From Naegleria gruberi (Eukaryota): a DNA stretch of 64,000 nt. Under the pieces are notes generated by a model that worked only from the letters and a program-made list of their open reading frames with translations, was not told the origin of the DNA and did not search any database. The stretch lies in the NCBI GenBank assembly GCA_000004985.1, contig GG738921.1, one strand, 5' to 3'. This document shows positions 21,201 to 60,265 of the stretch, one piece after another. The stretch's first letter is position 1. Every line of letters begins with the position of its first letter. Both the position numbers and the translations under genes were made by a program.

Positions 21201-22020
21201 GTATGAACCAGTTATATTTGATAGTGTGTCTCGAGCAAAGAGGGAAAATTTTTCAATCTTTTGTGAAACATTGGAAAGTACTAATGACATAATAGAATCA
21301 TCAAAATAACTAGGGTTGATAACCAAAACTGTTAAATTTGGACATTGTTGTGTGATATCCTCAATATTCTTGCGTGTTAGTGGATAGCTAGAACGAAACT
21401 CTGTCAAAGATTGAGGAAACCCAATCACGGTTTGATCCATTTCTTCTTCATGGAGGTTTAGTTCAGATAAAAGGCTTATCAACTCGAGAGTTTTTAAATT
21501 TTTAAACTCTTTCAACAAGTGAAAATATTCAGTTTTAAGATTAGTAAGTGTCAATACTGTCAAAGATTCCAACAATGGACTTGCATTCATTATCCACTCA
21601 ACAATGAAACTTCCAGAAATACAAGTTGCAGCTCTCAACCTCAACTCTTCCATTGACAATCGTCCAAGCTCACACAAACCCACATCTAAAAAAGCATATA
21701 TTAATCGACCATTCATAAATAATAATAATAAATTGATAACAATTACCTGTTAATGACGAGAACTCCAAAGAATTGAATGTAAACAAATCAATAACCTTCA
21801 ATCGTTTCATCTTGATCAGTAAATTATCCACAACTCCTCCGATCCTATGATTACTCAATCCGATGTGAATAAAGTATTGGGTCTTGTTATTCAGGAAATA
21901 ATACCAGATCCACTCGGCAAAAGTCTTTGAAATAAATCTCATCTGCAACAAGTGGTATTCATTGAAAAAACATAGCAAGTGTTCGGCACACAAATCACAA
22001 GGTAAATTCTGAATTTTCAT
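18294..22020 (-). CDS. Very large F-box-like / leucine-rich-repeat protein; exons 21747..22020, 19252..21685 (internal frame break near 20754-20788), 18689..19206, 18294..18629
   Basis: N-terminus NLPCDLCAEHLLCFF..FISKTFAEWI is F-box-like. Long LRR-like region with internal duplication (KTEYFHLLKEFKNLKTLEL versus NVEYLKYLGEFKNLTTLKV). Introns 21686..21746 (61 nt), 19207..19251 (45 nt, GTATGT..AACAG) and 18630..18688 (59 nt, GTAAGT..AACAG) verified by frame continuity. Track ORFs 20754..21716 and 19217..20788 overlap by 35 nt in different frames. Confidence 0.55.
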
Positions 22021-22380
22021 TTTTTTTTGATTTGATAGGAAATCTTTGTTAAACTGGAATGAAATTGTAATATCTAAATAATTTAAATATTAAATTATTT
22101 AATATTTAAATATTCAATTTTACATGATACAATTGAGGGGTCCGATCTATTCTTAAATTCATCCTCACAATATTCCTCGCACGAGCATAGAGCTCTTATT
22201 ATCGGGTTTCCAATTTCCTCTCACAACCCTTTCAATTCACCTCTCCATGGAATTTCAATTATTCAACCTTGATCATCACATGGCAACAACCTCTTAATGC
22301 GACAACGAGAAAAAACACGAATAATTTTATTACTCCATCCTCTTCAAAGAAAGGGCGGGTTTTTTTCTTAACGTAAAAAA

Positions 22381-22560
22381 ATACCTCGCAGCGTGCTAAG
22401 CGTTGGAATGTTTCGCACTAAGCAGAGTGCGCAAAGAGAGCACCATCAGCAGATTCCTTAGAGAAGAAGAAGGATGATACTGCTGATGGAAGGCTTTGCT
22501 CTCTATTCTTCTTCTAAAAGGTGGTGAAGGAGGACAATGTGTTGTGAGGATTATTTGTTT
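22381..22560. ncRNA. Candidate structured RNA or regulatory element: local GC-rich island with a long imperfect hairpin and possible pseudoknot
   Basis: A 17-bp stem: GAGAGCACCATCAGCAG (22436-22452) pairs with CTGCTGATGG...TGCTCTC (22480-22489 and 22497-22503), with a 7-nt bulge. Apical-loop AGAAGAAGAA can pair with TTCTTCTTCT at 22506-22516. A second small hairpin CGCACTAAGCAGAGTGCG at 22412-22429. GGATGATA and CTGA box-like motifs. Confidence 0.25.
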
Positions 22561-22703
22561 TTGAATGAATAGTTGAAATTGTACGTCGCTGATTCTCCAA
22601 AACACAATCAGAAAAAACAACAATACAAGAAACTATTAGGTTTCAATATATATTCCGAGTTTTATTGAATATTTGAATCATTAATTGATAATTACTTTGA
22701 AAA

Positions 22704-24776
22704 ATGTCAACAAATAATGAATTGGTTGTTGACGTCCAACAAATTAAGGATGATATGAAACAACAACAGCAACAACAGCCAGAGAGGAAATCAAGAAATC
22801 CCTTCAAGAAAAACAAGAAAAAGGCTGAAAACAAAGAAACAGAAGATATTGTCGATACAAGAGAACCAAATCTCAAATTTAAAGACAGTTTCACAATTTA
22901 CAAAATCATTGGATGGAATTGGATTTTGATATTCTTGGGAAGTATTGGTGCTATGGGAACAGGTGTTATTCCAATTAGGTAAGTTTCAGATATTTGAGTT
23001 TTTGTTACAAACACTTTCAAAGTTTCCAATTTGTTATGGGAGATTTAATCAATGTCTTTTCACCAACACGTGCCGATGGATCCACTGTTACTGCAGCTGA
23101 ACAGAAAGCTGAAATTGGAACATATGCTTCATACTTTGCAATTATTGCAGCTGCAGCTTGTATTGCCAATTTCATGTCTCAATTCTTTTTGAATTGGGCA
23201 AGTGAAAGAATTGGTGTTGCTATTAGAAGTGCTTATTTTGACTCATTGACAGTTCAAGAGATGGGTTTCTTTGATATTAAGAAGGTTGGTGCATTGACCA
23301 TTACTCTTTCTGAAGATATTACTCGTATTCAGGAAGTTTACTCTGTCAAGTTGGCTACCTTACTTCAAAACTTGGCTCAGTTCGTTGTCGGTGTCATTCT
23401 TGCCTTAACATCAGGATGGCAAATGGCCCTCGTCATGATGAGTACAACACCATTAATGATTTTGGGTGTAGTGTTGTTGGGTGGTGTTATCAGAAAGTTG
23501 ACCTTGTCAATTAATAAGGCCAACGATCATAGTGCCTCCATTGCTACTGAAGTGATGGGAGCTATGAGAACTGTAAGATCAATGGCCGGAGAGGAAAAGG
23601 AAAGAGTCAGATACAAGAAGGACTTGACCAAGATGTATTTGGCTGGTATTGGTAAGGCTGTTGCTCAAGGTTCTACTTTTGGTGTTTTGGTTGGTATCTT
23701 GTGGGGTACTACTGCTTTAGGTAAGTTTTTTTATTATTTCAAATTAGCTCAATAATGTTATTTTAGCTTTCTGGTATGGTGGTGGTCTAGTTGTTGATGG
23801 AACCATGAATATTGGATCTATGCTCAAGGTTTTCGGTTTGACATTGTTTGCTATTATTGGTATTTCTCAAGCTGGTTCATTCTTCCCTGATTATGGTAAG
23901 GCCATGGTTTCTCAAAAGACTGTTTTGAAATTATTGAAGAGACAACCAGCTATTATTTTCAAGGGAGGTAAAACTCTTGATACTATCATTGGTAATGTCA
24001 CATTTGAAAATGTTGATTTTGTCTATCCATCACGTCCAAATGCTACTGTCTTGAAGAATTTCAGTTTGGATATTAAGGCAGGTCAAGCTGTTGCTTTGGT
24101 TGGTCCATCTGGTTCAGGTAAATCAACAATTGTTGGTTTATTGGAAAGATTCTACGACCCAGCTCAGGGTAAGGTTTATCTTGATGGTGTTGATATCGCT
24201 GAAATCGATCCAATGTGGCTCCACAAGAATATTGGTATTGTCACTCAAGAACCTGTATTGTTTGCAACCAGCATTTACAAGAATATTGCTTATGCTATTG
24301 GTGAAGAAAATACTACAATGGAAAAGGTTATTGAAGCCGCTAAATCTGCCAACTGTCACAATTTCATTATGGACTTACCAGATGGATACAATACTTTATT
24401 GGGTGAACGTGGTGTCTCACTCTCAGGTGGTCAAAAGCAACGTGTCTGTATTGCTCGTGCCTTATTGCAAAATCCAAAACTTCTCTTATTGGATGAAGCT
24501 ACATCTGCCTTGGATACTGAATCTGAATCTCTCGTTCAAGCTGCTTTGGATTTATTGATGAAGGGTCGTACAACTATTTGTATTGCTCACAGATTGTCAA
24601 CTGTTAAGAACTCTGACAAGATTTGTGTATTGGCTAAGGGTATTTTGAAAGAAACTGGTACTCATGCCGAATTAATGGCCATTGAAAATGGTATCTATAA
24701 GAATTTGGCTGAAAGACAAATGTTGTTCTCTAATGAAAATGCTGATGTTGAAGCAACAATGGAAGTTTTGCAATAA
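22704..24776 (+). CDS. ABCB-type half transporter (TMD plus NBD); exons 22704..22978, 23023..23720, 23767..24776
   Basis: Six-TM N-terminal half. NBD has Walker A GPSGSGKST, signature LSGGQKQR, Walker B LLLDEATSALD and H-loop IAHRL. Introns 22979..23022 (44 nt, AG|GTAAGT..CAAAG) and 23721..23766 (46 nt, GTAAGT..TTTTAG) join the three track ORFs in frame. Confidence 0.85.
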
Positions 24777-34279: not shown

Positions 34280-35392
34280 ATGGTCATCCTCTCAAACAGA
34301 AGAATTTTACTTGTTGCTCGTCCGGAAAACACACCAAAATCTGCTCATTTCACACTGAGTGAACCAGTACAGGAAATCAATTCTGAAACTTGCCTAAACG
34401 AAGGTGAAATTCTTGTGAAAACCTTATTCCTCTCAGTGGATCCCTATTTACTCATGCCAATGGGAAGAAAGGGAGTGCATCCTGATGTGGTTCCTAATCA
34501 AACTCCATATCCATTGAAACAATTCAAGGATGCAGCAATTATTGCCAATGTTGGAGATGTGTTTGGAGGAAGAGGTGTTGGACACGTGGTTGCCACCAAA
34601 CATGATGATTACAAGGTTGGAGATTTGGTTGCTGCTGATTATAGATGGCAAGAATATGCAATTATTAGTGTAAAATCAGAGTTGACTTTTGAAAAATTGG
34701 AAAATGAAATATTTAGTCAAGTTTCTCCATCAACTGCTTTGGGTGTTTTGGGAGTGAGTGGTTCCCATGCATTGTGGGGTTTCAATTTCGTCCTTCCAAA
34801 AGATGAGAAACCAATCGAAGGAAAGACAATTGTTGTGAGTGCTGCAGCTGGTAGTATTGGACTAACTGTTGCTCAATTGGCCAAAAACAAGGGTTTCCGT
34901 GTGGTTGGTATTGCAGGAGGTGAAGAAAAGTGTGAGAAATTGATTTCTGAATTTAAATTGGATGCCGTAGTTGATTACAAAAAGGCAAATGGTGACTTGA
35001 CCTTACTTAGTCAATTATTGAAAGAAGCAGCTCCAAATGGAGTAGATGCATTCTTTGATAATGTAGGAGGATTGGTTGCTGATGCAGTTTATGAAAATCT
35101 CAATTTGAATGCAAGAGTTTATTTTTGTGGAGCTATTTCACAATATGGAGAAGGAAAATCAGTTTTAGCTCCAGAGAAATACACAAATAATCCAAATATT
35201 ACAAGTATTACATGTTTACAAGCTGATTATATTAATAATATTCCACAAGCAAGAAGAGAACTCTTTGAATTGATTCAAAAAGGTCAATTGAAACCAGTTG
35301 AGTGGATTACTAAGGGAATTGAACAAACTCCAAAAGTTTTTGAGGAGATGTATGCTGGAAGAAACTTTGGTAAAACACTTATTCAAATTTAA
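34280..35392 (+). CDS. Medium-chain dehydrogenase/reductase of the NADP-dependent alkenal/one oxidoreductase (PTGR1/LTB4-12-hydroxydehydrogenase) type
   Basis: Single 370-aa ORF. Rossmann motif AAAGSIGLTVAQLAKNKGFRVVGIAGG and overall PTGR-like layout. Confidence 0.8.
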   Translation: MVILSNRRILLVARPENTPKSAHFTLSEPVQEINSETCLNEGEILVKTLFLSVDPYLLMPMGRKGVHPDVVPNQTPYPLKQFKDAAIIANVGDVFGGRGVGHVVATKHDDYKVGDLVAADYRWQEYAIISVKSELTFEKLENEIFSQVSPSTALGVLGVSGSHALWGFNFVLPKDEKPIEGKTIVVSAAAGSIGLTVAQLAKNKGFRVVGIAGGEEKCEKLISEFKLDAVVDYKKANGDLTLLSQLLKEAAPNGVDAFFDNVGGLVADAVYENLNLNARVYFCGAISQYGEGKSVLAPEKYTNNPNITSITCLQADYINNIPQARRELFELIQKGQLKPVEWITKGIEQTPKVFEEMYAGRNFGKTLIQI

Positions 35393-41601: not shown

Positions 41602-42484
41602 TTAAACTTTATTATCAGCTCCGTAAGGTTGATTTGGTTGGGCATAATAATTAGGTTGTGGATCCACAACTCCTGGTTGACCATATCCTTGATTAGCAGT
41701 AGGATATGGTTGACCATAACCACCTTGTGGTTGTCCATAGCTTTGATTAGGATTATAAGGTTGAGCTGTTTGATTTGGATTATACGGTTGACCATAACCT
41801 GGTTGACCATAAACCTCTGATGATGGATTGTAATAAGGTTGTTGTTGACCTACTACTGGTGGTTGTGTTTGATTTGAATAATAAGGAGTTGAAGTGTAAC
41901 CACCTGGTTGTTGAACTGCCAAATTTGGTTGCATTTGGCCAACTGTTGTCGTGGTTGATTGAACAGTTGTGGTTGCAACTGGGATTGGAGTGGTGACAGT
42001 TGTGGCAGCTGCCAAATCACTTCTTGACATACCATCTGCGATATTCTTCATGATAATGAACATTCGAATACCTGCAATGACGGACGAAATTCCAGCAATG
42101 ATCAATACAATGCCAATAACACCCAAAACAATTGGAGTGGTAATTCCAGAGCATGATGTGCTGGAATTGGTTGTCACAGCAAGACATGCTATAATGAATA
42201 CAAAGTTTAGTCAAGTTTCGAATAATTTCAAAAATTGATTATTAGAAACAAGATAATGAATTAGTTTTCAACAGATCAACAAGAAACCTACCTGCATACA
42301 ATGCACCAACGGCAATCGCAGCAATTCCTAGAGCAATACCAATCAAGATGGAAACAACTCCTGAGATAATTGTGGCAAGTGGTTTAGTTCTTCTGTTTCC
42401 AATAACTATTCCTCCTCCTACGTGATGATTTACATGATGATGGTGATGATGACCGTGTCGTCCATGGTGATGGTGGTGAGCCAT
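41602..42484 (-). CDS. Two-TM protein with His-rich N-terminus and Gly/Gln/Pro/Tyr-rich (YGQP-repeat) C-terminus; exons 42292..42484 and 41602..42188
   Basis: MAHHHHHGRHGHHHHHH...; two TM helices, one per exon. Intron 42189..42291 (103 nt, GTAGGT..TTATAG) joins ORFs 42242..42484 and 41602..42177 in frame. Confidence 0.55.
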
Positions 42485-51670: not shown

Positions 51671-52342
51671 TTTAATAAAAAATTCATTTTTAAAAGGACA
51701 CTATCCTGTTGGCTTTAAGCAGGCTTGGTCATCAGAGAAGATAATAATAATTATGTATTATATTTCCAGCTAAATTGTTATCCAGCCAAGACTGTTTATC
51801 TTTGAACCTATCTATTTTCAAATGAATTCTCAATTTCAAAACACTGACTGCTCTTACGGAATTTACTTGTAAATATATTCATCATCAAACAACTACACCA
51901 AAACAACAACTCTCAAATGTTTTTAAATCATAAGGATAATTATCAAAATCCTCATCAAAACAACAGGCCTCAAGAATGATCATTCCGTTAAATGGTCTAC
52001 TCCACCTCCCGTACATCAGGAGTCGCTTAAATTTACCATGTTACCTCTCGCCAAATGATCCGAGCTTCTTCACAGGCTATCCAAAGAGCCAATAGTGGTG
52101 TTTGGATGGAACTTTTACTCTATTCATCACTCAGTGTCGAGTGACCTTCTTTCGCGATAATGTTTAATATCCAAACAAAAACAAAACCAACAACATTAAC
52201 AGCAACACTGCTTCTCTGTTCTCCTAATAATCGATACTGAACCTCGGAACAAGTTATTAGAAGTTTAACCTTAAGCCTCATTGGATCTCTTATTAGGGTT
52301 GACAATCTTTAACTGTCTGGATATTAACAAATTTAAAAAAAA

Positions 52343-53881
52343 ATGTTTAATCCATTCTTTACACAACCTTCTGGTGGCGCCAATGTCAATCCATCCAATG
52401 TGAATGGTTCAAATCAATTCAATAATAGTGTTGCTGGTACGTATAACAGTTGTAGTAATAGCAGTGGGAGTACAATGCCAAACTTATTTTCAGACATGAT
52501 TAATGTGAACAGAAGAATGATGATGGGAGGATTTAGCATGCCAAGTGTGAATTTTGGTATGACAGTGATGGGTCAATCGAGCACTACTAATATGACAAAT
52601 AGTGGGATGCTTGGTGGAGGAATGATTATGCCATCAAGTAAAACACATGAAATGTGTGACTTGTCTGGAAAGTGGCAAGACAAATCTGGTATGGTTTGGC
52701 ACATTACTCAAAATGGAAATACGTTCCAAATGATTGAGGAAAGGAGTAATTTCACAGGAAAGGGTTCAGTTATTTCGAGCAATATTAATGGAACCGAATG
52801 GGTAATTCATGTGTCATTAACTGCCAGAACATTACAAGTTAATAATCGTTTACAAGCATTCGACAATAACATGCTGGTTGGTCAAAGGGATTTTTTCAAA
52901 TTAATTGAGAAATTTAACACTAATGTGAAACCATCCCCAAACAACGTGATAGATCCAAATTTGAGTTTGAAATTGGTTGGATCATCTTTTAAATCAAAGA
53001 GTGGCGAATGGCAAGTGGTAATGAAACTAAATGAAGGATTATACGCAATTAAGAATGGAAGTGGAATTATGAAGCATTTGTGTATCACCCCAGACAATAA
53101 TGGTCAATTAATGGTTTTCATTTCACAAGAAAACAAATCAGGTAAGGGAGAAGAGGCCCTCTTCTGTTTAACAGCCGATATCTCACACTTGTCTCTTTCC
53201 AATGGAGAAGTTTGGACCTTAGAGGCTCCTCCAACTATCAATTCCCATGTCTACTCATCAATTTATCAACAACCTCAAACTTATAGTCAACCAGGCTATC
53301 CAATGTATCAACAACCACCAACTCAACCAAATTACTACCCTCCAAACAATTCATATCCACAACCTCCAAATCTTTACCAACAACAACCTTTTAATCCTTA
53401 CCCACCACAATACGGGCATCACCATCAACCACAACCAAATTATTATCCTCCAAATAATTCATATGTTCCACCTCCGCAAACTGTCTCACCTCCACCAAAA
53501 ACTATTGGTTGGGTGGAAAGCATTTTGGCTTGTAAAGACGAGAGTTCGAATAGAATTCTTGAAAAAATTGATCAATATTCAAAGAGCCAATATGAAAAAT
53601 GTGAATCTCATCATCTGAAACAAATTTTAAAACTTTTAACTCATGGACCACACCAACGTGATGCAATCTCCTTATTAAGCAAAAATTTAGCAATTGGATA
53701 TTTAACTTGTAGTTCAGTAGCTACAGATATTGTTCCTTGCTTTGACTTTTTCTCTCATACTTTTGAATCAATCACTACTTTAGCTCCACAAATAACAGAC
53801 AGACGTCAAAATGCAGAAGTAATTTGTAAATGTTTCAATGATATTGATGCCAAGAAAGTGAGAGAACTGTTAATGAAATAA
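52343..53881 (+). CDS. Hypothetical protein with Gly/Asn/Met-rich N-terminus, Pro/Gln/Tyr-rich middle and structured C-terminal domain
   Basis: Single 512-aa ORF; low-complexity PQ repeats (YPPNNSYPQPP twice). Confidence 0.45.
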   Translation: MFNPFFTQPSGGANVNPSNVNGSNQFNNSVAGTYNSCSNSSGSTMPNLFSDMINVNRRMMMGGFSMPSVNFGMTVMGQSSTTNMTNSGMLGGGMIMPSSKTHEMCDLSGKWQDKSGMVWHITQNGNTFQMIEERSNFTGKGSVISSNINGTEWVIHVSLTARTLQVNNRLQAFDNNMLVGQRDFFKLIEKFNTNVKPSPNNVIDPNLSLKLVGSSFKSKSGEWQVVMKLNEGLYAIKNGSGIMKHLCITPDNNGQLMVFISQENKSGKGEEALFCLTADISHLSLSNGEVWTLEAPPTINSHVYSSIYQQPQTYSQPGYPMYQQPPTQPNYYPPNNSYPQPPNLYQQQPFNPYPPQYGHHHQPQPNYYPPNNSYVPPPQTVSPPPKTIGWVESILACKDESSNRILEKIDQYSKSQYEKCESHHLKQILKLLTHGPHQRDAISLLSKNLAIGYLTCSSVATDIVPCFDFFSHTFESITTLAPQITDRRQNAEVICKCFNDIDAKKVRELLMK

Positions 53882-54055: not shown

Positions 54056-54802
54056 TTATCTGAAGATGACACCACCACCGCCGCCACCACCGACAACAGC
54101 ACCACCAACTGGACCTGGACCACCAACTGGACCAACTGGACCACCTGGAATTGGACCTGGGCCACCAATTGGACCAATAGGACCACCAACTGGAGGAGGA
54201 ACACCACCAGCAAATCCAATGCCACCATCAATTCCACCAACACCCCAACCACCATAATAAGGAGCTCCATATCCAACACCAACACCATAACCACCGCCAT
54301 AACCACCTCCATAACCATAACCACCACCATAACCACCATAAATTGGAGGAGGAGGAGGAGGAGGAACACCATAACCATAACCACCGCCATATCCACCATA
54401 TCCACCATAAACTGGAGGAGCAACAACAACTGGAGGTGGAGGAGGAGGAAGATATTGTTGGAATGAGCTACCATAGTTTGAACCATAATTGCTTGGACCA
54501 GTGTAAGAGCTTCCATAAGAACTGTATGGATTTGAGTTGACACTATCTACTTGATTGAGATAGGATTGAGTATTTTGAGCATACTTGTTATAGTTGCCAC
54601 CTGAGGTTCCATAATTAGAACCAGCACCGCCATAAGAACCATAATTATTGGCATTGTTGAAGGAACCAGTAGATCCACCAAAACCACCATAGTATGGAGG
54701 AGGAACACCATAGGATTTTGTTTCAGTGTCTCCTCCTGCCAAGACAATCGCAAGGGAGCAGAGTGATAGCAATAAGCCAATAAGAATCTTTTCAGATATC
54801 AT
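54056..54802 (-). CDS. Secreted Gly/Tyr/Pro-rich structural-type protein (GYGGGY and GPIGPIGGPGP repeats, poly-Pro tracts)
   Basis: Signal peptide MISEKILIGLLLSLCSLAIVLAGG; more than 60 percent G/Y/P over 230 aa. Confidence 0.5.
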   Translation of the reverse strand: MISEKILIGLLLSLCSLAIVLAGGDTETKSYGVPPPYYGGFGGSTGSFNNANNYGSYGGAGSNYGTSGGNYNKYAQNTQSYLNQVDSVNSNPYSSYGSSYTGPSNYGSNYGSSFQQYLPPPPPPVVVAPPVYGGYGGYGGGYGYGVPPPPPPPIYGGYGGGYGYGGGYGGGYGVGVGYGAPYYGGWGVGGIDGGIGFAGGVPPPVGGPIGPIGGPGPIPGGPVGPVGGPGPVGGAVVGGGGGGGVIFR

Positions 54803-55077: not shown

Positions 55078-55129
55078 GCGTCGATGGTTTAGTGGTAGAA
55101 TACGGCGGGTTCAATTCCCGGTCGACGCA
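55078..55129 (+). pseudogene. Truncated tRNA-like element (tRNA-Gly-like acceptor, D and T arms; anticodon arm missing)
   Basis: GCGTCGA..TGGTTTAGTGGTAGAATAC..GGCGGGTTCAATTCCCGG..TCGACGC. The 7-bp acceptor stem and T arm are intact and the D arm matches eukaryotic tRNA-Gly(GCC), but about 20 nt of anticodon stem-loop are absent (52 nt total). Confidence 0.45.
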
Positions 55130-60178: not shown

Positions 60179-60265
60179 TCCGATGAGACGGAATCGAACC
60201 GCCGACCACAGGATGACAGTTTTTCTTGCTACAGTCCCATGCTCTACCAGCTGAGCTATCATCGG
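60179..60265 (-). tRNA. tRNA-Tyr (anticodon GUA) with a 14-nt intron at the canonical 37/38 position
   Basis: Minus-strand CCGATGATAGCTCAGCTGGTAGAGCATGGGACTGTAG[caagaaaaactgtc]ATCCTGTGGTCGGCGGTTCGATTCCGTCTCATCGGA; acceptor CCGATGA/TCATCGG; matches eukaryotic tRNA-Tyr consensus. Confidence 0.8.

What the first reader, a model, noticed from the sequence alone, without database searches (positions are those of the whole stretch)
22381..22560. GC-rich, highly self-complementary island in AT-rich intergenic DNA upstream of the ABC transporter
In a spacer that is otherwise mostly A/T, about 180 nt contain CG dinucleotides, a 17-bp interrupted stem (22436-22452 with 22480-22503), a possible pseudoknot (loop AGAAGAAGAA with 22506-22516 TTCTTCTTCT) and a second hairpin (22412-22429). 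It also carries GGATGATA/CTGA box-like motifs. This pattern is typical of a small structured ncRNA gene (snoRNA, snRNA-like or another class) or of a structured 5' UTR or regulatory element for the transporter, whose ATG is at 22704. It matches no family I can name with confidence.
Basis: seen in the sequence. Interest (0 to 1): 0.55.

Follow-up and report, generated by a model that had tools for sequence, protein, structure and literature searches.

The report
Orphan GC-rich hairpin island, Naegleria intergenic
A short stretch between two genes of the amoeba Naegleria gruberi holds one unusually stable, perfectly paired 70-base hairpin next to a CpG-rich patch; it matches no known RNA family, so it is at best an unproven candidate for a species-specific small RNA.

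Summary
The window is Naegleria gruberi: one ORF is 100% identical to an N. gruberi protein. The island is real. It lies in the 683-bp divergent spacer between an F-box/LRR-like gene and an ABC-B half-transporter. It is non-coding, in the top 1% of the window for GC, and holds the densest CpG cluster in 64 kb.

Only one structural element is clearly beyond chance: hairpin H1 (22435-22504). It has 23 Watson-Crick pairs in three perfect blocks, z about -4.9, and is the 4th most stable 80-nt fold of 12,784. No shuffle of the spacer matches it (0 of 400).

The rest is weaker:
- The CpG-rich 5' part is not significantly structured.
- The "pseudoknot" is a marginal helix that cannot coexist with H1.
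- The "closing stem" is two oppositely oriented copies of a locally clustered heptamer, CCTCRCA.
- The box C/D-like strings do not fit the consensus.

No Rfam family matches. H/ACA, Sm-snRNA, A/B-box, telomerase-template and riboswitch criteria are not met. No homologue was found in any accessible collection, but the comparators were few.

Best guess, at about 0.4: a lineage-specific hairpin-type non-coding RNA. Promoter DNA carrying a palindrome is nearly as likely. Interest is modest.

The parts
22300..22432 (.). CpG cluster: 10 CpG in 133 nt, o/e 1.76. It overlaps the 5' third of the reported island and extends 80 nt upstream of it.
   Evidence: This is the highest CpG count of any 150-nt window in the 64 kb. 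CpG o/e is 0.41 in coding-like and 0.71 in non-coding-like sequence.
22163..22181 (+). Two direct copies of the heptamer CCTCRCA (22163-69 and 22175-81), upstream of the island.
   Evidence: only 6 copies in the whole window on both strands, and 4 of them lie within 22163-22549; any comparable heptamer reaches 4 copies in 12 of 1000 shuffles of the block.
22384..22392 (+). CCUCGCAGC: the third direct heptamer copy, and the 5' strand of the predicted 9-bp closing helix.
   Evidence: The helix has 2 G-U pairs, so it is intact only on the + strand. Adding it does not improve the z-score.
22414..22431 (+). Small hairpin CGCACU / AGUGCG with loop AAGCAG. Read as DNA it is an imperfect palindrome, TTTCGCAC...GTGCGCAAA.
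   Evidence: Read. The 5' domain 22381-22434 has z -0.4, so this hairpin is not beyond chance.
22435..22504 (+). Hairpin H1. From base to tip: 8 bp, a 7-nt 3' bulge (22490-96), 10 bp, a 2x5 internal loop, 5 bp, and a 10-nt loop. All 23 pairs are Watson-Crick.
   Evidence: Energy is -30.4 to -31.4 kcal/mol; z is -4.5 to -4.9 on the + strand and similar on the - strand. It is the 4th most stable of 12,784 80-nt windows. None of 400 spacer shuffles reaches it.
22456..22521 (+). It encloses the 3' arm of H1.
   Evidence: Energy is -21.4 kcal/mol, z -2.0 to -2.3 (p 0.02-0.05), about 10 kcal/mol weaker than H1. The connecting loops of 3, 8 and 1 nt cannot span full H1 and H2 together (geometric inference).
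22506..22534 (+). Hairpin H3: UUCUUCUUC with GAAGGAGGA. It contains 2 G-U pairs, so it is intact only on the + strand.
   Evidence: H1+H3 has z -4.2 on the + strand and -3.8 on the - strand.
22541..22549 (+). GUUGUGAGG: the inverted heptamer copy (CCTCACA on the - strand), and the 3' strand of the closing helix.
   Evidence: It is also complementary to the copy at 22156-70, 13 of 15 positions (I10).
22558..22562 (+). T5 run 8 nt after the closing helix. It could be a Pol III stop for a + strand RNA.
   Evidence: There is no T4 on the + strand in 22367-22557, but half of the window lies in T4-free gaps of that size, so this is only compatible, not evidence. tRNA genes here end with T4 4-7 nt downstream.

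Best explanation
The core of the finding is a lineage-specific RNA stem-loop: hairpin H1, 22435-22504, about 70 nt. It would be carried by a small non-coding transcript made from the spacer, independently of the two flanking genes. The most likely form is a + strand RNA of roughly 150-180 nt that ends at the T5 run 22558-62.

The hairpin would act as the functional unit. It could be a protein-binding stem-loop, or a substrate for the Dicer-like and Argonaute homologues present in the genus.

The CpG-rich segment and the CCTCRCA repeats upstream would then be the gene's 5' part and/or its promoter.

Shown: the hairpin is non-random, non-coding, compositionally like the tRNA genes of this window, and belongs to no known family.

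Inferred: that it is transcribed at all, the strand, the ends, the polymerase, and any downstream function.
For: 1. H1 is far beyond chance. z is -4.9, ensemble diversity is 2.4 against 15.0 for shuffles, and it ranks 4th of 12,784 80-nt folds. The three more stable folds lie inside low-complexity coding sequence, and tRNA-Glu ranks 5th. None of 400 shuffles of the spacer reaches -31.4 kcal/mol; the best shuffles reach -26.7 (whole spacer) and -29.1 (GC-richer block).
2. The two arms differ only by two discrete length differences (0 vs 7 nt, 2 vs 5 nt). All 23 aligned positions pair perfectly. Neutral decay of an old inverted duplication should give several substitutions for every indel (general knowledge). 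The pattern therefore suggests either selection on the helices or a very recent origin.
3. The region is non-coding. It has no long ORF, no tblastx or Pfam signal, and no protein match to the longest pseudo-ORF.
4. Composition is in the top 1% for GC and first for CpG. Of the other GC-rich patches, one holds tRNA-Glu, most of the rest are coding, and one (51950-52170) is non-coding and unexplained.
5. There is a weak preference for the + strand. The MFE has 6 G-U pairs on + and 1 on -. Energy is -65.1 on + and -48.7 kcal/mol on -. The MFE takes 2% of the ensemble on + and 0.2% on -. A T5 run follows on the + strand, while the - strand has an internal T4.
6. The TATA-like element of the ABC gene lies downstream of the island. 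The island is therefore probably not part of that mRNA.
Against: - There is no transcript evidence of any kind.
- No Rfam family matches, and none of the diagnostic motifs of snoRNA, snRNA, Pol III type-2 RNAs or telomerase RNA is present.
- H1 is purely Watson-Crick and scores equally on both strands. A DNA-level palindrome explains it as well as an RNA does.
- Everything apart from H1 is weak. The 5' domain has z -0.4. The closing helix adds nothing to the z-score and is made of two copies of a repeated DNA heptamer. H2 is marginal.
- z-scores near -3.8 for 160-nt windows occur in about 1% of the window.
- No counterpart lies upstream of the collinear ABC gene on a related environmental (ENA) contig, which is 80% identical in protein. 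None lies upstream of the Willaertia ABC gene either, nor in 83 kb of other heterolobosean DNA.
- No miRNA-like RNAs turned up for Naegleria in the literature searches run here.
Confidence: 0.4

Rival explanations
1. The island is promoter DNA, not an RNA gene. It would be part of the shared upstream regulatory region of the divergent F-box/LRR and ABC-B genes. Transcription factors would bind the clustered CCTCRCA heptamers and the short CpG-containing palindromes. H1 would be an incidental or cruciform-forming inverted repeat, and the RNA-like fold a by-product.
For: - Four of the six CCTCRCA copies in 64 kb lie within 22163-22549, three direct and one inverted. Only 12 of 1000 shuffles of the block reach 4 copies of any comparable heptamer, and this specific motif never exceeds 2 copies in 5000 shuffles.
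- The predicted closing stem is simply two of these copies in opposite orientation.
- The CpG-rich part is not structured.
- The location is right: it sits between AT-rich core-promoter-like stretches, with TATATATT at 22648-55.
- H1 is all Watson-Crick and symmetric between the strands.
Against: - A 23-bp, three-block hairpin with a 27-nt spacer is not what a dimeric factor site looks like. This model has to treat the strongest signal as an accident.
- The heptamer is almost absent from the other promoters in the window.
- The heptamer is not clustered upstream of the related ABC genes in L001 or Willaertia.
- No factor is known for the motif.
Confidence: 0.3
2. The island is a neutral relic. 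It could be a degenerate non-autonomous transposon or foldback fragment, another piece of foreign DNA, or a recent template-switch quasi-palindrome. It would have no present function.
For: - The 400-nt block 22156-22556 is compositionally distinct: GC about 0.40 and CpG o/e about 1, against 0.30 and 0.71 for non-coding sequence.
- The block is bounded by a 13-of-15 inverted repeat (I10).
- H1 is perfect Watson-Crick, as a young inverted duplication would be.
- No homologue exists in other heteroloboseans.
- N. gruberi does carry DNA transposons and viral insertions (PMC12344493).
Against: - The 13-of-15 terminal repeat is expected by chance about once in a spacer of this size (own estimate).
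- There is no target-site duplication.
- There is no second copy in the 64-kb window.
- There is no match in viral, phage, plasmid, bacterial or metagenome collections.
- Two indels with zero substitutions in the arms does not look like decay.
- The order of the complementary blocks (Y Z X ... Z' Y' X') is not that of a simple inverted duplication.
Confidence: 0.17
3. The island is a structured leader or upstream exon of the ABC-B transporter mRNA. Such a long 5' UTR, with alternative H1 and H2 conformers, would control translation.
For: - It is on the same strand as the preferred fold and 140 nt upstream of the ATG.
- H1 and H2 are mutually exclusive, which would suit a switch.
Against: - A TATA-like box lies at 22648-55, between the island and the ATG.
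- The island contains at least four upstream AUGs with short ORFs.
- No riboswitch or cis-regulatory family matches.
- H2 is about 10 kcal/mol weaker than H1 and only marginally non-random.
- Nothing comparable lies upstream of the collinear ABC gene in L001.
Confidence: 0.08
4. The island is a highly divergent member of a known RNA class: box C/D or H/ACA snoRNA, U1-like snRNA, vault/Y-type Pol III RNA, or telomerase RNA.
For: - There is a weak SCARNA4-like alignment (17.6 bits, E 0.79).
- The fold has a four-way-junction-like architecture followed by a U-rich tract.
- U1 of N. gruberi needed a special search in an earlier survey (PMC2396436).
Against: Every defining motif that was tested is absent; see the membership table.
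Confidence: 0.04

Closest known systems
Hairpin-type small-RNA precursors (miRNA-like or hairpin siRNA loci)
   Same: It is a single stem-loop of about 70 nt with about 23 stacked Watson-Crick pairs, a small apical loop, and an intergenic, non-coding position. It is lineage-specific with no homologues, as young hairpin loci are. Dicer-like and Argonaute homologues exist in the genus (PMC13315211).
   Different: There is a 7-nt one-sided bulge, and only 18 bp of continuous-register stem below the internal loop. No small-RNA reads are available. No target stands out: the one match, to the 3' end of the ABC gene, is at chance level. No miRNAs turned up for Naegleria in the literature searches run here.
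Pol III panhandle RNAs (vault RNA, Y RNA, the T. brucei vtRNA homologue)
   Same: The predicted RNA is about 180 nt with its 5' and 3' ends paired. A T-run follows directly and an A/T-rich stretch precedes it.
   Different: There are no internal A or B boxes. The terminal helix is not beyond chance and is made of a repeated DNA heptamer. The RNA would be longer than typical vault or Y RNAs. There is no Rfam hit.
H/ACA sno/scaRNA
   Same: A hairpin, hinge, hairpin, ACA layout can be drawn over 22459-22606. It gives the best, though insignificant, Rfam alignment, to SCARNA4.
   Different: The score is 17.6 bits against a gathering score of 60. There is no ANANNA hinge box and no two-sided pseudouridylation pocket. 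That fold has z -1.2.
Promoter-proximal homotypic motif cluster with palindromes (cis-regulatory module)
   Same: A locus-specific cluster of one heptamer in both orientations, CpG-containing short palindromes, and a position between two divergent genes.
   Different: Such modules do not normally contain a 23-bp three-segment hairpin that is among the most stable local folds of a 64-kb region.

Membership tests
Box C/D snoRNA | Box C (RUGAUGA) near the 5' end and box D (CUGA) near the 3' end, brought together by a short terminal stem (k-turn) | tested here: not met
   There is no RUGAUGA on the + strand of 22300-22620. GGAUGAUA (22472-79) and CUGAUGG (22483-89) each deviate at the critical GA, and they lie in the apical loop and 3' arm of H1, not at the termini. 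No C/D family appears in Rfam at E<=10.
Box C/D snoRNA | Guide of 10-21 nt complementary to rRNA, upstream of box D or D' | not testable with these tools
H/ACA snoRNA / scaRNA | Two hairpins with internal pseudouridylation pockets, an ANANNA hinge, and ACA 3 nt from the 3' end | tested here: not met
   SCARNA4 scores 17.6 bits against a gathering score of 60, E 0.79. The hinge 22516-22521 (AAAAGG) fails ANANNA. H1 has a one-sided bulge only. The fold of 22453-22610 has z -1.2.
Sm-class spliceosomal snRNA (U1 in particular) | 5' end complementary to the local 5' splice site (ACUUAC for GUAAGU) | tested here: not met
   Both introns of the adjacent ABC gene start with GTAAGTTT. The island and its 5' flank read AAAAAAAUACCUCGC, with no ACUUAC.
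Sm-class spliceosomal snRNA (U1 in particular) | Sm site RAU4-6GR flanked closely by stems; match to the Rfam snRNA models | tested here: inconclusive
   AUUUGUUUUUGA (22553-64) follows the closing helix, but the next hairpin starts 25 nt later. No snRNA family appears at E<=10.
Pol III type-2 RNAs (tRNA-like, vault RNA) | Internal A box (TRGCNNAGTGG) and B box (GGTTCGANNCC) | tested here: not met
   There is no match in 22021-22703, allowing 1 mismatch for the A box and 2 for the B box. The tRNA genes of the window are recovered by the same scans.
Pol III transcripts in general | T4 or longer terminator just after the RNA, and none inside it | tested here: inconclusive
   On the + strand a T5 lies at 22558-62 and there is no T4 in 22367-22557. 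However, about half of the window lies in T4-free gaps of at least 185 nt.
Telomerase RNA | Template of about 1.5 repeats complementary to the telomere repeat (candidate TTTGGG in N. gruberi, PMC3622300) | tested here: not met
   No 9-mer of (CCCAAA)n occurs in or near the island on either strand (for the repeat).
miRNA-like hairpin precursor | Imperfect stem of about 21 bp or more, without large asymmetric bulges, that yields a discrete small-RNA duplex | tested here: inconclusive
   There are 23 Watson-Crick pairs but also a 7-nt one-sided bulge. Small-RNA reads cannot be tested here.
Riboswitch / structured 5' UTR of the ABC gene | Lies within the mRNA leader and matches a known aptamer | tested here: not met
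   A TATA-like TATATATT at 22648-55 lies downstream of the island. No cis-regulatory family matches. The position of the transcription start is inferred, not measured.
MITE / non-autonomous DNA transposon | Terminal inverted repeats, target-site duplication, and multiple copies | tested here: not met
   The 13-of-15 inverted repeat 22156-70 with 22542-56 is at chance level by my own estimate. The flanking bases TA and GT are not a duplication. There is no second copy in the window or in other loci. Genome-wide copy number is not testable here.

The most novel reading that the evidence does not exclude
H1 is the precursor of a Dicer/Argonaute-dependent small RNA, or the core of a bistable (H1/H2) regulatory RNA. 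Either would be the first such hairpin RNA locus described in a heterolobosean (Discoba). It would sit next to, and possibly act on, an ABC-B efflux-type transporter gene.
Probability: 0.12. Interest if true: 0.55.

Novelty: new member of a known kind. Interest (0 to 1): 0.3.

Why it matters
Little on the non-coding RNAs of Naegleria beyond tRNAs, rRNAs and spliceosomal snRNAs turned up in the literature searches run here. Naegleria is a deep-branching Discoba lineage and the genus includes the pathogen N. fowleri. A validated species-specific structured RNA, or a first hairpin small-RNA precursor, would be a useful entry point into RNA-based regulation in this lineage.

If the island is instead promoter DNA, the CCTCRCA cluster is a candidate cis-element for an ABC transporter gene. 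That would be of local interest only. Either way, the present evidence supports a candidate, not a discovery.

Tried and rejected
1. Known RNA families. Rfam at gathering threshold on the whole window and in E-value mode on 22100-22750 gave nothing. Manual checks of U1, U2, U4, U5, U6, U6atac, U12, RNase P/MRP, SRP and hammerhead motifs found only scattered short resemblances, and no Rfam model for any of these families reached E<=10.
2. Telomerase RNA. There is no CCCAAA-type template.
3. Coding or pseudogene. Six-frame translation, tblastx against the window and related loci, Pfam, and a protein search with the 75-aa pseudo-ORF were all negative.
4. A larger structured RNA. 22120-22380 folds at z about 0 on both strands.
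5. Antisense regulation of the ABC mRNA. The 23-of-28 complementarity to 24723-24750 is at chance level.
6. Homologues.
   - The ABC gene on ENA contig L001 (80% identical) is collinear, but its flanks are not syntenic and its upstream region shares only chance-level words with the island.
   - The Willaertia ABC upstream region has no counterpart.
   - N. fowleri, N. lovaniensis and a second Willaertia locus gave nothing by blastn, nhmmer or the covariance model R1. The one 25.6-bit hit is a GA/UC low-complexity tract inside a coding gene.
   - The JGI metagenome scan with an 18-mer gave 7 chance hits.
   - Two viral scans gave 0 hits.
   - The bacterial/archaeal scan with the H1 arms gave 15 unrelated chance hits.
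   - Phage and plasmid blastn gave none.
   - N. gruberi genes themselves are not indexed for context look-up.
7. Vertebrate-style CpG island. N. gruberi has 0.28% 5mC with no CpG preference (PMC12344493), so this reading was dropped.
8. MITE. See the membership table.
9. A second GC-rich non-coding patch (51950-52170) is unstructured, so it provides no sister element.

Full report
**Context.** The window is nuclear DNA of Naegleria gruberi.
- The ORF at 34280-35389 is 100% identical over its full length to an N. gruberi predicted protein on a 207-kb contig.
- The ABC-B half-transporter next to the finding has its best matches in Naegleria and Willaertia.
- The window is 32.5% GC. It has short GTAAGTTT...AG introns, two tRNA genes and one assembly gap.
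- The finding lies in the 683-bp spacer 22021-22703. On one side is a minus-strand F-box/LRR-like ORF whose ATG is at 22020. On the other is the plus-strand ABC gene whose ATG is at 22704.
- The outer parts of the spacer are very AT-rich: 22021-22119 is 13% GC and 22561-22703 is 25% GC. They contain TATA-like strings, TATATATT at 22648-55 for the ABC gene.
- The middle 500 nt are 37-44% GC.

**Checking the observation.**
- The island is in the top 1% of 120-nt windows for GC.
- Most of the other GC-rich patches are a tRNA gene or low-complexity coding sequence. One further non-coding patch, 51950-52170, is as GC-rich as the island but unstructured.
- The densest CpG cluster of the whole 64 kb is here: 10 CpG in 22300-22432, o/e 1.76. 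Coding-like sequence has o/e 0.41 and non-coding-like 0.71.
- That cluster starts 80 nt upstream of the reported start and stops where the big hairpin begins. The hairpin half has no CpG at all.
- N. gruberi DNA is barely methylated and has no CpG preference (PMC12344493). The cluster should therefore not be read as an unmethylated island of the vertebrate kind.

**Is the fold more than chance?**
- The 180-nt element folds at -65.1 kcal/mol on the + strand and -48.7 on the - strand. With 200-300 dinucleotide shuffles, z is about -3.8 to -4.2 on either strand.
- Taking the element apart shows where the signal comes from. Hairpin H1 alone (22431-22508) has z -4.9 and a very well-defined ensemble. 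The CpG-rich 5' domain (22381-34) has z -0.4. Adding the 9-bp closing helix does not improve the score.
- In a scan of all 80-nt windows on both strands, H1 (-31.4 kcal/mol) is the 4th most stable of 12,784. Three coding low-complexity regions rank above it and tRNA-Glu ranks just below.
- None of 400 dinucleotide-preserving shuffles of the spacer, or of its GC-richer block, produces a window as stable. The best shuffles reach -26.7 and -29.1.
- In contrast, z near -3.8 for 160-nt windows is reached by about 1% of the window. Exact 10-nt inverted repeats within 60 nt are common, at 114 pairs, mostly AT palindromes.
- The defensible statement is therefore this: one hairpin is strongly non-random, and the rest of the proposed architecture is not.

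**Anatomy.**
- H1 pairs 22435-42 with 22497-504 (8 bp), 22443-52 with 22480-89 (10 bp) and 22455-59 with 22470-74 (5 bp). These are separated by a 7-nt bulge on the 3' side and a 2x5 internal loop, with a 10-nt apical loop. All 23 pairs are Watson-Crick.
It encloses the 3' arm of H1. The connecting segments are 3, 8 and 1 nt long, so full H1 and full H2 cannot coexist (geometric inference). H2 could only be an alternative conformer. It is about 10 kcal/mol weaker than H1 and only marginally non-random, with z about -2. (GAA)3 and (TTC)3 tracts occur 7 and 6 times in the window.
- The same pyrimidine tract can instead pair with GAAGGAGGA to form H3.
- The closing helix pairs CCUCGCAGC with GUUGUGAGG and has two G-U pairs. 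These two strands turn out to be copies of one heptamer, CCTCRCA, in opposite orientation.
- Four of the only six copies of that heptamer in the 64-kb window (both strands) lie within 22163-22549. In shuffles of the block, any comparable heptamer reaches four copies in just 1.2% of trials.
- This is a DNA-level regularity that the RNA reading does not predict.

**What it is not.**
- Not coding.
- Not a member of any Rfam family.
- The box-like strings GGAUGAUA and CUGA do not fit box C/D and sit in the wrong places.
- An H/ACA layout can be drawn. It lacks the hinge box and pockets and is not stable beyond chance.
- There is no ACUUAC to match the local 5' splice site, so it is not U1. An earlier survey had needed a special search for U1 in N. 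gruberi (PMC2396436), which is why this was checked.
- There are no A or B boxes.
- There is no template for the candidate TTTGGG telomere repeat.
- The T5 run after the closing helix, and the absence of T4 inside, are compatible with Pol III. Given how common such T4-free stretches are, they carry no weight.
- The complementarity to the 3' end of the ABC mRNA is at chance level.

**Comparative evidence.** This is the weak point, because the full genomes of Naegleria species cannot be searched with these tools.
- The closest accessible relative of the ABC gene is an ENA contig at 80% protein identity. Its gene is collinear, but its flanks differ and its upstream region shares only chance-level words with the island.
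- The Willaertia ABC upstream region has its own, unrelated, small GC bumps.
- blastn, nhmmer and a covariance model of H1+H3 found nothing real in 83 kb of N. fowleri, N. lovaniensis, Willaertia and ENA loci.
- Pattern scans of metagenomes, viral contigs and prokaryotic genomes, and blastn of phages and plasmids, gave only chance hits or none.
- Orthologous proteins are only 56-64% identical between N. gruberi and N. lovaniensis or Willaertia. The absence of a recognisable counterpart there therefore says little about a lineage-specific RNA. It does argue against an ancient, essential one.

**Weighing the explanations.**
- The strongest single fact is a hairpin whose arms are perfect in three blocks and differ only by two length differences. 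Neutral decay of an inverted duplication would scatter substitutions (general knowledge). This points to helices that are being maintained, or to a very young structure.
- An RNA stem-loop explains this most naturally. It also fits the tRNA-like composition and the weak + strand asymmetries: 6 G-U pairs on + against 1 on -, and H3 and the closing helix being intact only on the + strand.
- I therefore put a lineage-specific hairpin-type ncRNA first, at about 0.4.
- The heptamer cluster, the unstructured CpG part, the strand-symmetric all-Watson-Crick hairpin and the position between two promoters fit a regulatory-DNA reading almost as well (about 0.3).
- A transposon or foreign relic (about 0.17), a transporter leader (about 0.08) and a divergent known class (about 0.04) follow.
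- None of these can be settled without expression data or close-relative genomes.

**Novelty and score.** If real, this would be a new, family-less small RNA of a familiar general kind. A specialist would find it mildly interesting rather than surprising. Interest 0.3.

Noticed in passing
window 55078-55129 (+): A 52-nt tRNA-like sequence, GCGTCGATGGTTTAGTGGTAGAATACGGCGGGTTCAATTCCCGGTCGACGCA. It has an acceptor stem, D arm and T arm but no anticodon arm. Rfam tRNA scores 31.5 bits (gathering score 29) in a local scan. It was missed by the whole-window Rfam scan and by ARAGORN. It has a perfect B box and an A-box-like site, with TTTT about 17 nt downstream. It could be a truncated tRNA pseudogene or a mascRNA-like tRNA-like small RNA.
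   Followed up: partly
window 22163-22549: A locus-specific cluster of the heptamer CCTCRCA, three direct copies and one inverted. This accounts for 4 of only 6 copies in 64 kb. It is not clustered upstream of the related ABC genes in L001 or Willaertia.
   Followed up: yes
window 22704-24776 (+): The ABC-B half-transporter here (three exons, about 44-50-nt introns) has no match of 90% or more in the protein collection, although the window is N. gruberi. The best N. gruberi hits are 64-69%. The gene seems to be missing from the N. gruberi protein set held there.
   Followed up: no
window 14328 to about 15530: A run of N (assembly gap). It explains the apparent 11-16% GC in the composition profile and the spurious overlapping long ORFs on both strands.
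   Followed up: yes
window 60179-60265 (-): A tRNA-Tyr(GUA) gene with a 17-nt intron. Rfam found it but ARAGORN did not.
   Followed up: no
window 41602-42177 (-) and 54056-54802 (-): GC-rich (up to 61%) low-complexity ORFs encoding Gly/Pro/Tyr/Gln-rich proteins. They contain the most stable local folds and strongest z-scores of the window, so they are a source of false positives for structure scans.
   Followed up: partly
window 51950-52170: A second non-coding patch as GC-rich as the island (45%), upstream of the ORF at 52343. It has no significant fold on either strand and only chance-level snoRNA-like Rfam hits. Its nature is unknown.
   Followed up: partly
L002 8295-8355 and 8580-8630 (Willaertia magna): Upstream of the Willaertia ABC gene, small GC bumps carry repeated TACGGAAT / TTCCGTAA words in both orientations. 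This is a possible promoter motif, unrelated to the N. gruberi island.
   Followed up: no
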